Virus record (IMG/VR): IMGVR_UViG_2541047437_000015
DNA from: a virus
Taxonomy: Duplodnaviria; Heunggongvirae; Uroviricota; Caudoviricetes
Reading direction: 5' to 3' (one strand)
DNA length: 21,659 nt
Shown: piece after piece, positions 1 through 6,711 of the stretch
Position numbering within the stretch: the first letter of the stretch is position 1
Layout: each line of letters begins with the position of its first letter
Notes under the pieces: model-generated
Databases searched by the model: none
What the model was told of the DNA's origin: nothing
What the model saw: only the letters and a program-made list of their open reading frames with translations
Translations under genes and position numbers: made by a program

Positions 1-750
1 TAATCGTGACGTTGTTGAGCGTCCCGGAGTTCGCATTCACGTTACCGCTGATATCGGCATTTTTCGCCGTCAGCCGCCCGTCCGGTGTCAGGGAAAATGC
101 CGGAGGATTACCGCCGCTGGTAATGGTGGGAGCCGTCAGATATTTCAGGAACACTTCATTCATGAATATCTGATCGCCCTGACCAACAAACATCGGCTTT
201 GTGTTGCCATTCGCAGGATTAATCATCGCAATCCTGTCTGCTGCCAGCAGCACCTGACTCTGCATGCCGTCGGGGGTGTTCTCAATACCGGCACCGATAC
301 CCGCAATATAAAGGCGTCCGTCCTGCATCTGCTGCAGCTTCACTGCCCACATGCTGTTCAGGTTATTATTTGTATCAACCTGAACCTTCTGTATCTGCTG
401 GATCGCTGCACTCTGGTCTTCCAGTTTCTTATTGACGGTCTGTGTTATTTCATTGCTGACATCCGTTATGGACGTCCTGATTTCAGTCAGGTCAGGCGCA
501 AGCTGACCGTTATCAATCTGAGTCCACAACTCCTGAGCCAGATGGGTTTTCCCTATCTCTCCTTTGAAAAAATCCAGATAGCCTGATGCATCATCACTCG
601 GCTGACCGACAGCCTCCACAAATGCCGATTTGCCAACGGTGTTCACACTGCGGATATAAAAGTAATAATCATGGCCCGGTTTGATATTGATACTGGCAGC
701 TATCCAGTACAGCGCCGAGCCAAGATAGCGGGTATAGCGCGGCGATTTTT
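1..750 (-). pseudogene. Fragment of a lambdoid host-specificity / tail-tip protein J-like gene, runs off the window start; upstream part replaced by the Mu-like prophage end (boundary approximate, 730-775)
   Basis: Not in the ORF track because its stop lies outside the window. My own minus-strand translation reads ...[53 protein letters not shown]...[31 protein letters not shown]...[41 protein letters not shown]..., which I recognise as the C-terminal third of lambda-family J proteins. No plausible start or N-terminal ~800 aa is present. Confidence 0.55.
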
Positions 751-2946: not shown

Positions 2947-2987
2947 CCCGCCAGCCATATCATGACCGGCGGGATTTTTTTATTCTG
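2947..2987 (+). terminator. Plus-strand-oriented intrinsic-terminator-like hairpin (CCCGCC...GGCGGG followed by ATTTTTTTATT), directly abutting the esterase stop codon
   Basis: 6-bp GC stem with a ~15-nt loop and a T7 run on the plus strand. On the minus strand, where the neighbouring genes lie, the A-run precedes the hairpin, so it would not act as a canonical terminator for them. Confidence 0.4.
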
Positions 2988-5019
2988 TTACCGCTTTTTT
3001 CACTTCCACCACAATGCTGTCAATCAGCACCGGGTAAGTTGCATTTTTTGTGATATCCGTTACGCGGAGTTTGTCCACCGGGAAAGTTCCTACTGGTGAC
3101 TGCGTCAGGGTAAACGCGGCACCATCCTGACCATCAATAACCGGAATAACCTGAAGGCTGTTATTTCCTGCAAAACGGAAGGCCAGCGTATGCCATTCAT
3201 TATCAAATGCACCAAAGGTTCCCAGTTTCTGGTTATTTGTTGCCACTTTTGCATTGTGGTACATCACATTCAGGTCTTTTGCGTCTGTCTGGATGTAGAA
3301 CGATGCCAGCAGATTATTCCCTGCATCCCCTGTCAGGGTGACACCCTGCGGCAGAGAGGAAACCGGCCAGTAAAGCCCCATGACATACTGGTTTGCCACC
3401 AGGTCGCCAGGTACTTTAAAACGACAACTGATTAAACCACCATTTTTCAGCAGTTCAGCACCAGTACCGGCATCATGATCCAGATACCAAGATGATTTAC
3501 CTGTTTCCTTGGTCAGTTTCATTGCCTTACCACCTGTGCCTCCTGCATCACTGATAATTTCAGCTTTACCGCCAGCCGGCTCCCAGCCCTGGGCTTTCAG
3601 ATTTCCTTCTGACTCACTGACACGATAAGACAGCAGTGTTGTGGTTACTGCTTCAGTTTCTGAAGGTGACGGCACTGGTGCTTCAGTTTCAGAAGATGGA
3701 ACATCGGCTTTTACTGTGGTTCGCCCCGCATGAGTCAGAACTGCCGTGGCCAGACGGTCGGAAATAATCCCACGACGTGCCCATGAACTGAAATGGCTGG
3801 CCCGGTCCGCAGATGTCCAGGTGGCGGCACTGTTACGCCACGTTGAGCCGTAATAACCAATGGATTCAATATCCGGGTCTTCTGCCGGATTGTTGGTGGG
3901 TACATTCGCGTCATTTTCATCTGTCATTAATGGAACGAAATGAATGTTTTTATCTGTTTTGTTTTTGTAGCCGCCATAGATTGCCTGGTATGCCGGTTCA
4001 TTTTTCTGTTTCCAGAAATACGTGGTATCGCCACAAATCCACGGAACGCCAGCAGCACTGCCACCGGTACACTGTTCCGCCTGTTCAGCCAGGTCTGCGC
4101 GGAATTTTTCCACCATCGCCAGAAACAGCGCGGAATGCTCCGTCGGCTTCGCATCAATATCAAACTCGCCCTGCATCCACACCACAGCAAGCAGGCGGTT
4201 TTTCGGGTTCTTCGCCAGTGCCGCTTTTGTCCGGCTGATTAAGTCCTTATACAGCGGCTTATCCACACCCCAGCGGGCTGAGTCCTCTGAAGCACCCGTG
4301 CTGTCACTGTACGTGCCGTCAGCACCCGCCGTGAATGCAGAACCACCACGGCAGCAGGGAACCAGCAGAATCCCCGCATCTGCCGGAATAAACGGCAGCA
4401 GTTTTTTGGCAATGTGAAGCCCCTGACCCACGGTGCCATATTGCCCTTTAGCCACATCCGCTTTCGGGTGATTTTTTCCACTCATATCCTGCACATCATG
4501 CAGACAGTGGTCGGCCAGAATGATGTCGTTATACTGACAGGCTTTACCTCCCGGCGTGACTGTACTGCGACGGGCTAACTGCATAATACGCGGTTCGGGG
4601 CGGTCATATGTCTCCGGCAGTGGCAGACCTTCACCGTAAGCCATACCGTTTGACTGACCAGCAAGAACCACCACGTAATACCAGGAAGGGGAGCTGGAAG
4701 CAGTTTCATTTCCTGACGGACGGGTATGTGTTTCAGCATTATCCCAGTCTGACGGTTCAGCAGTACCGGCAACATCAGCACTTAACGGAATGACCGCACC
4801 AATACCCGCTCCGGTAATTTCCACACTCGGATCACCGGATACTGGCCTTACCCACAGGCAATCCCGTGTATTAAAACTGATGAGACAGTCAGCAAATGTC
4901 ATTCCTCCTTTTGTTTCGGCCGGAGGAAAGGGAGCCTCAAGAAATGCCGCTGTACCACCGGAAACTTTAACAGTAAAGTTTCCGGGCATTGATGATAGTT
5001 GAACCCATTTGGACGTCAT
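2980..5019 (-). CDS. SGNH/SASA-family esterase, putatively a sialate O-acetylesterase-like (NanS-p-like) protein, with a C-terminal lectin/carbohydrate-binding-like domain
   Basis: 679-aa ORF. VVVLAGQSNGMAYGE contains the GQSN nucleophile motif typical of SASA/SGNH esterases. A Ser/Thr/Glu/Pro linker (SETEAPVPSPSETEA) precedes a ~200-aa beta-rich C-terminal domain. This architecture resembles the prophage-borne NanS-p esterases of E. coli. Confidence 0.6.
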   Translation of the reverse strand: MTSKWVQLSSMPGNFTVKVSGGTAAFLEAPFPPAETKGGMTFADCLISFNTRDCLWVRPVSGDPSVEITGAGIGAVIPLSADVAGTAEPSDWDNAETHTRPSGNETASSSPSWYYVVVLAGQSNGMAYGEGLPLPETYDRPEPRIMQLARRSTVTPGGKACQYNDIILADHCLHDVQDMSGKNHPKADVAKGQYGTVGQGLHIAKKLLPFIPADAGILLVPCCRGGSAFTAGADGTYSDSTGASEDSARWGVDKPLYKDLISRTKAALAKNPKNRLLAVVWMQGEFDIDAKPTEHSALFLAMVEKFRADLAEQAEQCTGGSAAGVPWICGDTTYFWKQKNEPAYQAIYGGYKNKTDKNIHFVPLMTDENDANVPTNNPAEDPDIESIGYYGSTWRNSAATWTSADRASHFSSWARRGIISDRLATAVLTHAGRTTVKADVPSSETEAPVPSPSETEAVTTTLLSYRVSESEGNLKAQGWEPAGGKAEIISDAGGTGGKAMKLTKETGKSSWYLDHDAGTGAELLKNGGLISCRFKVPGDLVANQYVMGLYWPVSSLPQGVTLTGDAGNNLLASFYIQTDAKDLNVMYHNAKVATNNQKLGTFGAFDNEWHTLAFRFAGNNSLQVIPVIDGQDGAAFTLTQSPVGTFPVDKLRVTDITKNATYPVLIDSIVVEVKKAVTE

Positions 5020-5118
5020 AATAATCAGCCTGTTCCTGAATAAACTGAATTATCATATCCACAGACCGATAAACGCCATTTTGCGTTAATTCAGTAAAGG
5101 CCCAACAAAGAGAGCGTC

Positions 5119-5679
5119 TTATTTTTCCGAAACGCTCGCAGGATAATAACGATAAAGGGTTGAAAGGCCGATATCAAAAATAAGTGCCACCTGTCTTCGA
5201 CTGACACCCCCGGCCAGTAAACGCCCGACCTGCTCGTATTGTTCCTGCGTGAGACGACGGGGTCTGCCGCCGGTTCGTCCCCTTTCACGGGCAGCTGCAA
5301 GACCAGCCCGTGTCCGTTCGACAATTAATTCACGCTCCATTTCTGCCAGCGCACCCATTATGTGAAAAAAGAAGCGCCCCATGGGGGTTGACGTATCAAT
5401 GTTGTCAGTAAGACTACGAAAATTTATCCCCTGTTGCTGTAATTCATCTGTCAGCGCAACAAGGTGGCGCATACTGCGCCCCAGCCTGTCCAGTTTCCAG
5501 ACCATCAGTGTGTCACCGGGTTTTAGTTTCTTCAGTGCCCGCTTCAGTCCCGGCCGCTGTGTCGTTTTACCACTCATTTTATCTTCAAAAATCTGCTCAC
5601 ATCCTGCACATTCCAGCGCATTTCTTTGTAAACCTGTGTTCTGGTCATTTGTTGATACGCGTATATAGCCAATCAGCAT
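5119..5679 (-). CDS. gin: Gin/Pin/Cin/Hin-family serine DNA invertase
   Basis: 186-aa ORF. MLIGYIRVSTNDQN...VWKLDRLGRSM...FRSLTDNIDTSTPMGRFFFHIMGALAEMERELIVERT is near-identical in pattern to Mu Gin, with the catalytic Ser in the RVST motif. RBS AAGGAAGG 8 nt upstream. Lies adjacent to a gix-like site. Confidence 0.9.
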   Translation of the reverse strand: MLIGYIRVSTNDQNTGLQRNALECAGCEQIFEDKMSGKTTQRPGLKRALKKLKPGDTLMVWKLDRLGRSMRHLVALTDELQQQGINFRSLTDNIDTSTPMGRFFFHIMGALAEMERELIVERTRAGLAAARERGRTGGRPRRLTQEQYEQVGRLLAGGVSRRQVALIFDIGLSTLYRYYPASVSEK

Positions 5680-5733
5680 GTATTTACCTTCCTTAAAAAG
5701 AGGTGGAAAGGCCTTTTAAAGCAGATATACGGC

Positions 5734-5760
5734 ATCCCTGAAACCTTCGGTTTACGGGAT
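5734..5760. other. gix-like recombination site A (gin-proximal): ATCCCTGAAACC-TTC-GGTTTACGGGAT, 12-bp half-sites with an atypical 3-bp spacer
   Basis: Imperfect palindrome read directly. The inside half GGTTTACGGGA is identical to the inside half of site B. It resembles Mu gix TTCCTGTAAACC-GA-GGTTTTGGATAA as I remember it. Confidence 0.6.
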
Positions 5761-6105
5761 ACTGTAAACAGGGCCGCGAATGCCCTGCCATCGAACGGAG
5801 CGGCTGTTGCAGCGAATAAACTCGCCACTCCAAGAAATATTAATGGTGTCCCATTTGACGGAACGCAGGATATAAATATTACATCGGGGATGACGCAGTC
5901 TGTGGCTGACTCACGTTATGTTCAAAGCATTCGAAGAGGTTCAAGGTCAACGATTGGAATGCAATATAATATTTTTGAGGTTCCTGACGGATGCGTACTT
6001 ACAGGGCTTGATGTCGCTGGTGATGGTAATGCAACGGTAACCGCATATTATCGACCTGTTCAGTTTCTGATAGATGGTTCGTGGAAAACAGCTTCCAGCG
6101 CATAA
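5749..6105 (+). other. Silent alternative tail-fibre C-terminal cassette (S'-variable arm); in frame from the gix core, no start codon of its own
   Basis: Translation from 5749 reads GLRDTVNRAANALPSNGAAVAANKLATPRNINGVPFDGTQDINITSGMTQSVADSRYVQS...YYRPVQFLIDGSWKTASSA, paralleling the C-terminus of the expressed fibre (GLRETVNKAADALPSGGTAVAANRLATPRNINGVPFDGTLDINITSGMTQSTADGRYVQ...YYRPVQIYINNAWRTVSSV). Track ORF 5890..6105 is its 3' part. Confidence 0.7.
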
Positions 6106-6184
6106 AAGTGCAGTAGTTCAAAAAACAGATTATCTGAATAAATATATGATGATTTTGTCTTTTCAACAAAAACAAGGTGAAATA

Positions 6185-6706
6185 ATGGAGCTTATTAACG
6201 TAAAACGATATTACCCGGAACACAAACCCTATGGTGAGGATGTTCAGTATTTCCAGAGTGAGGACGGAAGGGATTTTTATGAATCTATCCCGCTTTTCAC
6301 AAAGAAATACAAACTCTGTATTTCGCCTGTAACGGGTATTATCTGCTCTGTTGCTGAAGATGTCTCTGCTTTATATCCGGCAGGTTTTACTGTTGTTGAA
6401 GTGGACGAACTGCCGGAAGGTGTGAATATTGACGGTAACTGGCAGTTTTCTGATGGCCTGATATCAAAGGTGCCGGTAAACTGGAAGACGGTTGCTGAAA
6501 AGCGCCGCTCATCGCTGCTCCAGGAAGCCAACGAAACTGTGGATGACTGGAAAACGGAATTAAAACTGGACATGATTAGCGATGAAAATAAATTACAGCT
6601 GACGCGCTGGATGGCGTATATCCGACAGCTTAAAGAAATGCACTTTAATGATATTGCCAGTGAGGGGCATTACCAGGCGATTCCCTGGCCGGAAAAACCG
6701 GAATAA
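6185..6706 (+). CDS. Tail-fibre assembly protein (Tfa / Mu U'-like chaperone) belonging to the silent cassette
   Basis: 173 aa from ATG 6185 (AAGGTGA RBS). The C-terminal half has the pattern I associate with lambda-type Tfa proteins. It immediately follows the plus-strand fibre cassette. Track ORF 6074..6706 is over-extended at the 5' end. Confidence 0.75.
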   Translation: MELINVKRYYPEHKPYGEDVQYFQSEDGRDFYESIPLFTKKYKLCISPVTGIICSVAEDVSALYPAGFTVVEVDELPEGVNIDGNWQFSDGLISKVPVNWKTVAEKRRSSLLQEANETVDDWKTELKLDMISDENKLQLTRWMAYIRQLKEMHFNDIASEGHYQAIPWPEKPE

Positions 6707-6711
6707 TTCAG

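What the first reader, a model, noticed from the sequence alone, without database searches (positions are those of the whole stretch)
5734..5760. Gin-proximal crossover site has a 3-bp spacer and a core that differs from the partner site; the switch may be locked
Site B (7110-7135) is a textbook 26-bp site with 12-bp half-sites around a 2-bp AA core. Site A reads ATCCCTGAAACC-TTC-GGTTTACGGGAT, with well-formed 12-bp half-sites separated by 3 bp. Whichever 2 bp are taken as core, one half-site is out of register, and the core dinucleotide in the matching orientation (GA) differs from site B (AA). Serine invertases need identical 2-bp cores, so this looks like a 1-bp insertion that could freeze the segment.
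Basis: partly seen in the sequence, partly recalled or inferred. Interest (0 to 1): 0.6.

Follow-up and report, generated by a model that had tools for sequence, protein, structure and literature searches.

The report
Tail-fibre switch jammed by one base
A Mu-like prophage of pathogenic E. coli carries a one-base insertion in the centre of one of the two DNA sites its Gin enzyme uses to flip a tail-fibre segment; this very probably freezes the phage's host-range switch, a neat but unsurprising natural mutant of a well-known system.

Summary
The window is an Sp18-type Mu-like prophage of EHEC. Site A (5734-5760) is a 27-bp gix-type site, ATCCCTGAAACC-TTC-GGTTTACGGGAT. Site B (7110-7135) is a normal 26-bp site with an AA core.

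The reference Sp18 in strain Sakai is identical over 2.65 kb except that site A reads TT, which matches site B. The window therefore carries a 1-bp insertion.

In 5,426 complete E. coli genomes the same backbone carries four core states: TC/GA, TT/AA, TC/AA and TTC/AA. The TTC allele occurs in 36 genomes at 15 or more different insertion sites, always in the window's orientation and never inverted. Every inverted copy I read (10 loci) has matched 2-bp cores. One matched-core prophage is found in both orientations at a single insertion site, so the same gin gene and backbone do switch.

None of 18 viral or metagenomic relatives has a 3-bp spacer. Gin is intact and aligns end to end with crystallised Mu Gin.

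The most likely reading is a cis-acting lock in the orientation that expresses the 303-aa fibre. The lock itself is inferred, not shown by experiment. The system is known; the allele appears to be undescribed. Interest is modest.

The parts
5734..5760 (.). Site A, the gin-proximal crossover site (analogue of Mu gixR). It is 27 bp: outer half ATCCCTGAAACC, spacer TTC, inner half GGTTTACGGGAT.
   Evidence: homologous sites in relatives are 26 bp with a TT or TC core
5746..5748 (.). 3-bp spacer TTC. Relative to the nearest allele (Sakai, TT) the extra base is C5748. Relative to TC alleles it would be an extra T.
   Evidence: the shared SNP 5111A links the window to the Sakai TT/AA type
7110..7135 (.). 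Site B, the crossover site inside the tail-fibre gene (analogue of Mu gixL). It is a canonical 26-bp site: TTCCCGTAAACC AA CGTTATCGATAA.
   Evidence: it forms the inversion endpoint in relatives
5119..5679 (-). Gin-type serine DNA invertase, 186 aa, with Ser9 in MLIGYIRVSTNDQ. It is intact.
   Evidence: PDB 3UJ3/4M6F Mu Gin, E = 2e-91 over residues 1-182; Pfam Resolvase + HTH_7; the DNA is identical to gin of relatives that have inverted
5740..5924 (.). Left arm of the imperfect inverted repeat that carries site A and the start of the silent fibre C-terminus.
6946..7130 (.). Right arm of the imperfect inverted repeat, carrying site B.
5761..6105 (+). Silent alternative fibre C-terminal segment (S'v). 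After inversion it is fused to Sc to give a 295-aa fibre.
   Evidence: simulated inversion; annotated 888-bp CDS in inverted relatives
6185..6706 (+). Tail-fibre assembly protein (173 aa), co-oriented with the silent S'v. It is the only such gene in the segment.
   Evidence: Pfam Caudo_TAP, E = 1.9e-18
6741..7652 (-). Currently expressed tail fibre S, 303 aa. Sc = 7136-7652 is the constant part; Sv = 6741-7109 lies inside the invertible segment.
   Evidence: (ECs_4989 in Sakai)

Best explanation
This is the Gin/gix tail-fibre (host-range) inversion switch of an Sp18-type Mu-like prophage. A single base pair has been inserted into the central crossover dinucleotide of the gin-proximal site, changing TT to TTC.

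Gin-family invertases bind as a dimer to two 12-bp half-sites. They cut both strands with a 2-bp stagger at the centre, rotate, and religate, and religation needs the 2-nt overhangs of the two sites to pair. With 3 bp between the half-sites, the two subunits cannot both be in register with the scissile phosphates. Any 3-nt overhang produced could not be ligated to site B's 2-nt AA overhang.

The segment is therefore frozen, in cis, in the orientation that expresses the 303-aa Sc-Sv fibre (6741-7652). The alternative S'v segment and the only assembly-protein gene stay silent.

Shown: the insertion; its derived status; its restriction to one orientation; and an intact recombinase and backbone that switch when both cores are 2 bp and matched. 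Inferred: that the 27-bp site is catalytically dead.
For: - Sakai Sp18 differs from the window over 5100-7750 only by TT in place of TTC. The shared SNP 5111A places TTC within the TT/AA lineage.
- Allele counts in 5,426 complete E. coli genomes: TTC in the window's orientation 36; TTC inverted 0; TT 24; TC 76.
- 23 genomes carry the inverted orientation. All 10 inverted loci I read have matched 2-bp cores.
- The same ycfJ|mom insertion is inverted in FORC_044 but in the window's orientation in AR-0428 and NCCP 15739, all with TC/GA cores. The identical gin and backbone therefore flip in lysogens.
- TTC prophages lie at 15 or more different host flanks, so the 36 genomes are not one clone.
- All 18 extra loci from IMG/VR and metagenomes have 2-bp cores, and none has a 3-bp spacer.
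- Mu gixL and gixR are 26 bp with TC and GA cores.
- Gin is intact.
- Literature: cleavage has a 2-bp stagger and hix sites are 26 bp (PMC3798978, PMC4817059). A single base change in one hix core prevents ligation in the inverted configuration (PMC4817059). Prophage sites shown by PacBio to be inverting all have 2-bp TC or TT cores (PMC4134206, Table 3).
- Fisher's exact test, 0/36 against 13/85: p about 0.01.
Against: - There is no direct assay. Assemblies report only the majority orientation of a culture, so low-level inversion would be invisible.
- Matched alleles are themselves strongly biased to the window's orientation (about 72 to 13), so 0/36 is only moderately significant, and the test is not corrected for shared ancestry.
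- New lysogens may all start in this orientation if only that fibre infects E. coli.
- I found no published test of a 1-bp core insertion in the papers available here.
Confidence: 0.8

Rival explanations
1. The 27-bp site is only weakened, not dead. Gin still inverts the segment at a low rate. This could happen by cutting with the outer half-site in register, where the core TT matches site B, so the switch would be slow rather than locked.
For: In one register the dinucleotide next to the outer half-site is TT, which complements site B's AA. Matched alleles are also mostly in the window's orientation, so 0/36 does not exclude a several-fold lower rate.
Against: No TTC-inverted genome exists. 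No product with the extra base moved to site B appears among the inverted genomes on this backbone or in the other collections. Such a product would truncate the fibre to 200 aa. The inner subunit would be 1 bp out of register for cleavage.
Confidence: 0.13
2. The extra base is a sequencing or consensus artefact, for example a long-read consensus of a culture mixed for TT and TC cores. The real site would then be 26 bp.
For: Sakai, which was Sanger-sequenced, has TT. Both TT and TC alleles exist in the population, and TTC looks like their union. Many of the TTC assemblies are probably long-read assemblies (my own inference; sequencing platforms were not checked here).
Against: The allele appears in 36 assemblies from many laboratories and countries, plus this window. 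Genome series from the same laboratory contain both TT and TTC (for example CP038423 against CP038376). All TTC copies carry the linked SNP 5111A, which is a phylogenetic signal an artefact should not show. Site B is cleanly AA in all 36.
Confidence: 0.05
3. The segment is static for a trans-acting reason, such as a defective Gin, a lost enhancer or no expression, and the odd spacer is incidental.
For: None specific to this window. One relative (STEC2017-197) does have a frameshifted recombinase, so that route to a lock exists in the family.
Against: Gin is full length with a catalytic Ser9 and an HTH domain. The entire gin and upstream DNA is identical to that of relatives that have inverted. 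Strain 2013C-3252 carries a TTC copy alongside a second TC copy that could supply Gin in trans.
Confidence: 0.02

Closest known systems
Phage Mu Gin/gix G-segment inversion
   Same: The recombinase aligns with crystallised Mu Gin over residues 1-182, E = 2e-91. The gene order is the same: baseplate genes, S, invertible segment, gin, com, mom. The crossover site lies inside the fibre gene, so alternative C-termini are fused to a constant N-terminus. Site B and the relatives' sites are 26 bp like gixL and gixR, and the majority core TC/GA is Mu's core.
   Different: Site A has a 3-bp centre. The segment is 1.37 kb rather than about 3 kb and holds only one assembly-protein gene, where Mu has U and U'. 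[quoted passage not shown]
Sp18 of E. coli O157:H7 Sakai (NC_002695, ECs_4989-4992)
   Same: Identical over window 5100-7750 apart from one base. It has the same orientation and the same AA core at site B. It is described as intact and efficiently packaged, with an invertible host-specificity region (PMC2669165).
   Different: Sakai's site A is the 26-bp TT form whose core matches site B. The window's prophage is also inserted elsewhere: sorM in Sakai, against a junction seen in no complete genome for the window.
Hin/hix substrates with a core mutation (pRJ862)
   Same: A lesion confined to the central nucleotides of one of the two sites blocks formation of the inverted product while leaving the protein and the partner site intact (PMC4817059).
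   Different: That mutant is a substitution, so the spacing is kept and cleavage followed by 360-degree rotation still occurs. Here the change is an insertion that also alters the spacing of the half-sites.
P1 Cin/cix 'localized conversion' at crossover sequences (Iida & Hiestand-Nauer 1986, 1987; cited in PMC4134206; content recalled from memory)
   Same: On one invariant backbone this family shows TC/GA, TT/AA and the mismatched TC/AA. That is the pattern expected if a core mutation in one site is copied to the other by a rare mismatched exchange.
   Different: The pattern is seen here only as a natural polymorphism, not as an observed event. The TTC allele is an indel rather than a substitution, and no converted TTC/GAA pair exists.

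Membership tests
Gin/Hin/Cin/Pin DNA invertases (small serine recombinases) | N-terminal resolvase catalytic domain with the nucleophilic serine near residue 9-10 | tested here: met
   Pfam PF00239, E = 1.4e-51; Ser9 in MLIGYIRVSTNDQ aligns with the corresponding position of crystallised Mu Gin
Gin/Hin/Cin/Pin DNA invertases (small serine recombinases) | C-terminal helix-turn-helix DNA-binding domain | tested here: met
   Pfam PF02796 HTH_7, E = 1.7e-14, residues 138-181; matches the Hin DNA-binding domain 1HCR
Gin/Hin/Cin/Pin DNA invertases (small serine recombinases) | Close sequence relationship to a characterised invertase | tested here: met
   3UJ3/4M6F Mu Gin, E = 2e-91, 307 bits, residues 1-182
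gix/hix-type inversion switch | Two 26-bp crossover sites, each made of two 12-bp imperfectly symmetric half-sites around a 2-bp core | tested here: not met
   Site B meets this. Site A is 27 bp with a 3-bp centre. The sister alleles TT and TC do meet it.
gix/hix-type inversion switch | Identical central dinucleotide in the two sites, read in inverted orientation | tested here: not met
   TTC against AA. No register gives both correct spacing and a matching core.
gix/hix-type inversion switch | Sites in inverted orientation flanking alternative tail-fibre C-termini next to the invertase gene | tested here: met
gix/hix-type inversion switch | Both orientations of the segment actually occur | tested here: not met
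   For the TTC allele: 36 in the window's orientation, 0 inverted. The feature is met for the matched-core sister alleles, including at one insertion site.
gix/hix-type inversion switch | Fis-dependent recombinational enhancer within the 5' part of the invertase gene | tested here: inconclusive
   The 5' DNA of gin has long blocks identical to Mu, but these overlap conserved codons, so Fis sites could not be separated from coding constraint. Indirectly, the same DNA supports inversion in sister prophages.
Mu-like transposable prophage | Mu-type late-region gene order ending in gin, com and mom, with insertion at many unrelated host sites | tested here: met
   mom 861-1598 and com 1552-1797; annotated as Sp18 Mu-like; dozens of different host flanks; PMC7430833

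The most novel reading that the evidence does not exclude
The crossover cores of this switch are a mutational hot spot, created by Gin's own abortive cleavage and religation or favoured by selection. The TTC lock is spreading because it fixes the E. coli-adapted fibre. On an otherwise invariant 2.65-kb backbone (0-1 SNP) the family shows four core states: TC/GA, TC/AA, TT/AA and TTC/AA. This would be a natural record of core mutation, 'localized conversion' and finally loss of phase variation. The locked allele has since inserted at 15 or more new genomic sites.
Probability: 0.25. Interest if true: 0.5.

Novelty: new member of a known kind. Interest (0 to 1): 0.33.

Why it matters
The result shows, in natural populations of a major food-borne pathogen, how a phage host-range switch can be switched off by one base in a crossover site while the phage remains mobile. 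If the lock is real, about a fifth of Sp18-type prophages in complete E. coli genomes produce only one fibre type, which bears on their host range and on the horizontal spread of this transposable phage. The family also offers a ready-made allelic series (TC/GA, TT/AA, TC/AA, TTC/AA on one backbone) for testing the spacing and core-identity rules of serine invertases and the 'localized conversion' model in a native context. It does not change what is understood about the mechanism.

Tried and rejected
- I searched for the window's own host junction (350-1150) to find its source genome. No complete genome covers it, so this particular insertion could not be used for orientation comparisons.
- I searched IMG/VR and JGI/ENA metagenome contigs for any 3-bp-spacer version of site A or site B and found none. 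The 2-bp control did find 18 loci.
- I tried to identify the Fis enhancer by aligning the gin 5' region with Mu and scanning for Fis-like 15-mers. The only shared hit overlaps the codons for the catalytic VSTNDQ motif, so it says nothing about an enhancer.
- I considered deriving TTC from TC/AA by duplication of a T. I rejected this in favour of TT plus C because the window shares SNP 5111A with the Sakai TT/AA type, while the TC/AA locus has 5111G plus another SNP.
- I considered a third or quasi crossover site within the window. Only two half-site matches exist.
- Pfam gave no domain for the 303-aa fibre.
- Two papers I wanted were not held: a review of serine invertases (looked up as PMC4384473) and Stark et al. 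1991 (PMC453083). I therefore found no published test of a 1-bp core insertion.
- Two Pfam calls failed because of wrong frame coordinates.

Full report
**What is in the window**

The window matches, at 100% identity, the Sp18-type Mu-like prophage found in many enterohaemorrhagic E. coli genomes (Sakai annotation).

On the minus strand the late region reads: baseplate genes; a YmfQ/gp48-like gene; a 303-aa tail fibre (6741-7652); a Gin-like invertase (5119-5679); a 679-aa DUF6645/SASA-esterase protein (2980-5019); then com (1552-1797) and mom (861-1598). The prophage ends near position 732.

Between the fibre gene and gin lies a 1.37-kb segment bounded by two crossover sites. These sit at the outer ends of a 185-nt, 77%-complementary inverted repeat. 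The segment holds three things:
- the C-terminal 123 codons of the expressed fibre (Sv, minus strand);
- a silent alternative C-terminus on the plus strand (S'v, 5761-6105);
- one tail-fibre assembly gene on the plus strand (6185-6706; Pfam Caudo_TAP).

**Checking the observation**

Site A (5734-5760) is ATCCCTGAAACC TTC GGTTTACGGGAT. Site B (7110-7135) is TTCCCGTAAACC AA CGTTATCGATAA.

The 11-nt inner half-site occurs exactly twice in the window, once at each site, against 0.27 expected by chance.

Read directly from NC_000929, Mu's gixL is TTATCCAAAACC TC GGTTTACAGGAA and gixR is TTCCTGTAAACC GA GGTTTTGGATAA. Site B is therefore a normal 26-bp site, and site A is the same kind of site with one extra base at the centre.

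**Is it an insertion?**

Yes. Over window 5100-7750 the Sakai Sp18 sequence has no difference from the window except that site A reads ACC TT GGT.

Other copies of the same backbone differ from the window by 0-1 SNP over this stretch and carry ACC TC GGT at site A. A more distant relative, 94% identical, has TC at site A and GA at site B.

The window and Sakai share the only backbone SNP near gin (5111 A; G in all the others), so the window's allele is most simply TT plus a C.

**Population survey**

I used 81-82-nt junction queries, in which only exact matches reach the 99% identity band. The 5,426 complete E. coli genomes contain:

| Site and orientation | Core | Exact matches |
|---|---|---|
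| Site A, window's orientation | TTC | 36 |
| Site A, window's orientation | TT | 24 |
| Site A, window's orientation | TC | 76 |
| Site B, window's orientation | AA | 88 |
| Site A, inverted | TTC | 0 |

The 36 TTC genomes are the 36 that are essentially identical to the window over the whole 2.65 kb, so all of them have AA at site B.

The figures 88 - 36 - 24 imply about 28 genomes with a naturally mismatched TC/AA pair. I read this state directly in strain 118.

A synthetic query with the segment inverted found 23 genomes in the other orientation. I read ten of these. All have matched 2-bp cores, TT/AA twice and TC/GA eight times, and their inner half-site marker bases are swapped as a true crossover at the core predicts.

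Eighteen further loci from IMG/VR and metagenomes all have 2-bp cores. The 13 in which both sites are visible all have matched pairs. No 3-bp spacer exists at either site in those collections.

**Does the same machinery switch when the cores are normal?**

Yes. Three genomes share one insertion site, with an identical ycfJ|mom junction. FORC_044 has the segment inverted, while AR-0428 and NCCP 15739 have it in the window's orientation. All three have TC/GA cores and the same gin protein, WP_000904930.1. The gin gene and the DNA upstream of it are base-for-base the same in the window and in relatives that have inverted.

The protein is a full-length Gin homologue. It aligns over residues 1-182 with crystallised Mu Gin (E = 2e-91), Ser9 is present, and it has the Resolvase and HTH_7 domains. 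Whatever stops the window's segment from inverting therefore acts in cis.

**Independence of the 36 TTC genomes**

The host sequence beyond mom differs from genome to genome. Among TTC genomes I could assign at least 15 different flanks: fbpC, yjeJ, a portal gene, yoaF, psiE, a DUF2534 gene, the L-aspartate oxidase gene, hyfE, a fimbrial gene, a yeeE/yedE-family gene, an aminotransferase gene, dcuC, a minor-tail gene, ydhR and a transaldolase-family gene.

The window's own junction occurs in no complete genome. The TTC prophage has therefore kept transposing or infecting after the insertion arose, in line with reports that Sp18 is intact and efficiently packaged (PMC2669165) and that Mu-like prophages sit at strain-specific sites (PMC7430833). 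It has kept the same orientation throughout.

A simple Fisher test, 0/36 against 13/85 inverted, gives p about 0.01. This is not corrected for relatedness. It is also weakened by the strong bias of matched alleles towards the same orientation, perhaps because only that fibre gives infection of E. coli.

**Mechanism**

These premises are established knowledge. Gin and Hin dimers bind 26-bp sites. Each subunit becomes linked to the 5' phosphate next to its own half-site, which gives 2-bp staggered breaks. After a 180-degree rotation the 3'-OH ends must pair with the partner's overhang for ligation (PMC3798978, PMC4817059). A single base change in one hix core already prevents ligation in the inverted configuration (PMC4817059).

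The rest is my inference. With 3 bp between the half-sites, either the subunits cut next to their own half-sites and leave 3-nt overhangs that cannot be joined to site B's 2-nt AA, or one subunit is out of register for catalysis. In both cases no stable inverted product forms.

If an exchange did occur, the predicted products would be a TTC/GAA pair or a TT/AA pair. A GAA spacer at site B would shift the fibre reading frame and truncate the protein to 200 aa. No such genome exists among the inverted copies on this backbone.

By contrast, some relatives carry an extra A inside the outer half-site (GAAAACC, which keeps the core-proximal AAACC in register). That form is found inverted, with matched TC/GA cores. 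A 1-bp change away from the centre is therefore tolerated.

**Consequence**

The frozen orientation expresses the 303-aa Sc-Sv fibre. The 295-aa Sc-S'v fibre and the only assembly-protein gene, both readable only after inversion, stay silent. Because the locked phage continues to spread, the Sv fibre must work in this configuration.

**Rivals**

- A leaky rather than dead site cannot be excluded from assemblies alone.
- A consensus artefact is unlikely. The allele appears in 36 assemblies from many laboratories. It coexists with TT assemblies in genome series from the same laboratory. It is linked to SNP 5111A, and site B is cleanly AA.
- A trans defect is excluded by the identity of gin to that of relatives that switch.

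**Comparison with what is known, and novelty**

The system is a member of the Gin/gix family and is essentially the published Sp18 switch. I found no description of the 27-bp allele, or of the natural TC/AA mismatch, in the papers I could search.

The co-existence of TC/GA, TC/AA and TT/AA on one backbone is what the 'localized conversion' model for P1 Cin predicts. The citation is confirmed in PMC4134206; the model's content is from my memory. One mismatched exchange of a TC/AA pair followed by replication gives one TC/GA daughter and one TT/AA daughter.

Two independent core mutations out of about four events in 2.65 kb is far more than uniform mutation predicts (p about 1e-5; a post-hoc count). 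This hints at a hot spot or at selection.

**Verdict**

The lock is well supported but not proven. It is a tidy natural loss-of-switching allele of a well-understood system, of modest interest.

Noticed in passing
L013 (NZ_CP028665, strain 118) sites at locus 2215 and 3589; about 28 genomes by subtraction: A natural mismatched-core allele: TC at site A with AA at site B, on the same backbone and always seen in the window's orientation. By the same rule it should also be unable to give a stable inverted product without core conversion.
   Followed up: partly
window 5746-5748 and 7122-7123, compared with L001, L003, L004 and L010-L013: Almost all variation among these 2.65-kb loci sits in the two cores (TC/GA, TT/AA, TC/AA, TTC/AA), against 0-1 backbone SNP. 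The pattern fits 'localized conversion' and suggests that the cores are a mutational or selective hot spot.
   Followed up: partly
L006, L008, L009, site A: These relatives have an extra A inside the outer half-site (ATCCCTGAAAACC TC ...). L006 and L008 are nevertheless found inverted, with matched TC/GA cores. A 1-bp change away from the centre is therefore tolerated, unlike one at the centre.
   Followed up: partly
window 6185-6706 (+) against 6741-7652 (-): The invertible segment has only one tail-fibre assembly gene, co-oriented with the silent S'v. The expressed (locked) fibre has no assembly gene downstream of it, whereas Mu has both U and U'. How the Sv fibre is assembled is unclear.
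   Followed up: no
window 1-732: The Mu-like prophage is inserted in what appears to be a tail gene of another prophage (a partial hit is annotated 'phage tail tip domain-containing protein'). This exact junction is found in none of the 5,426 complete E. coli genomes.
   Followed up: partly
window 2980-5019 (-): A 679-aa protein lies between gin and com/mom. It has a sialate O-acetylesterase-like SASA domain and a C-terminal DUF6645. Mu has no gene at this position between gin and com.
   Followed up: no
L015 (NZ_CP075663, STEC2017-197), locus 1671-2161: The recombinase gene of this relative is annotated as frameshifted. This is a second, trans-acting route by which the switch is being lost in the family.
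   Followed up: no
NZ_CP027442 (strain 2013C-3252), 1017452-1020102 and about 4245568: This genome carries two Sp18-type prophages, one with the TTC site and one with a TC site. Gin from the second copy could act in trans, yet the TTC copy is in the window's orientation.
   Followed up: no
L014 (NZ_CP024056, SMN197SH3), locus 1-1501: This copy is truncated beyond gin. The esterase gene is partial and the host gene dusA follows directly. It is a decayed prophage remnant, held in the inverted orientation.
   Followed up: no
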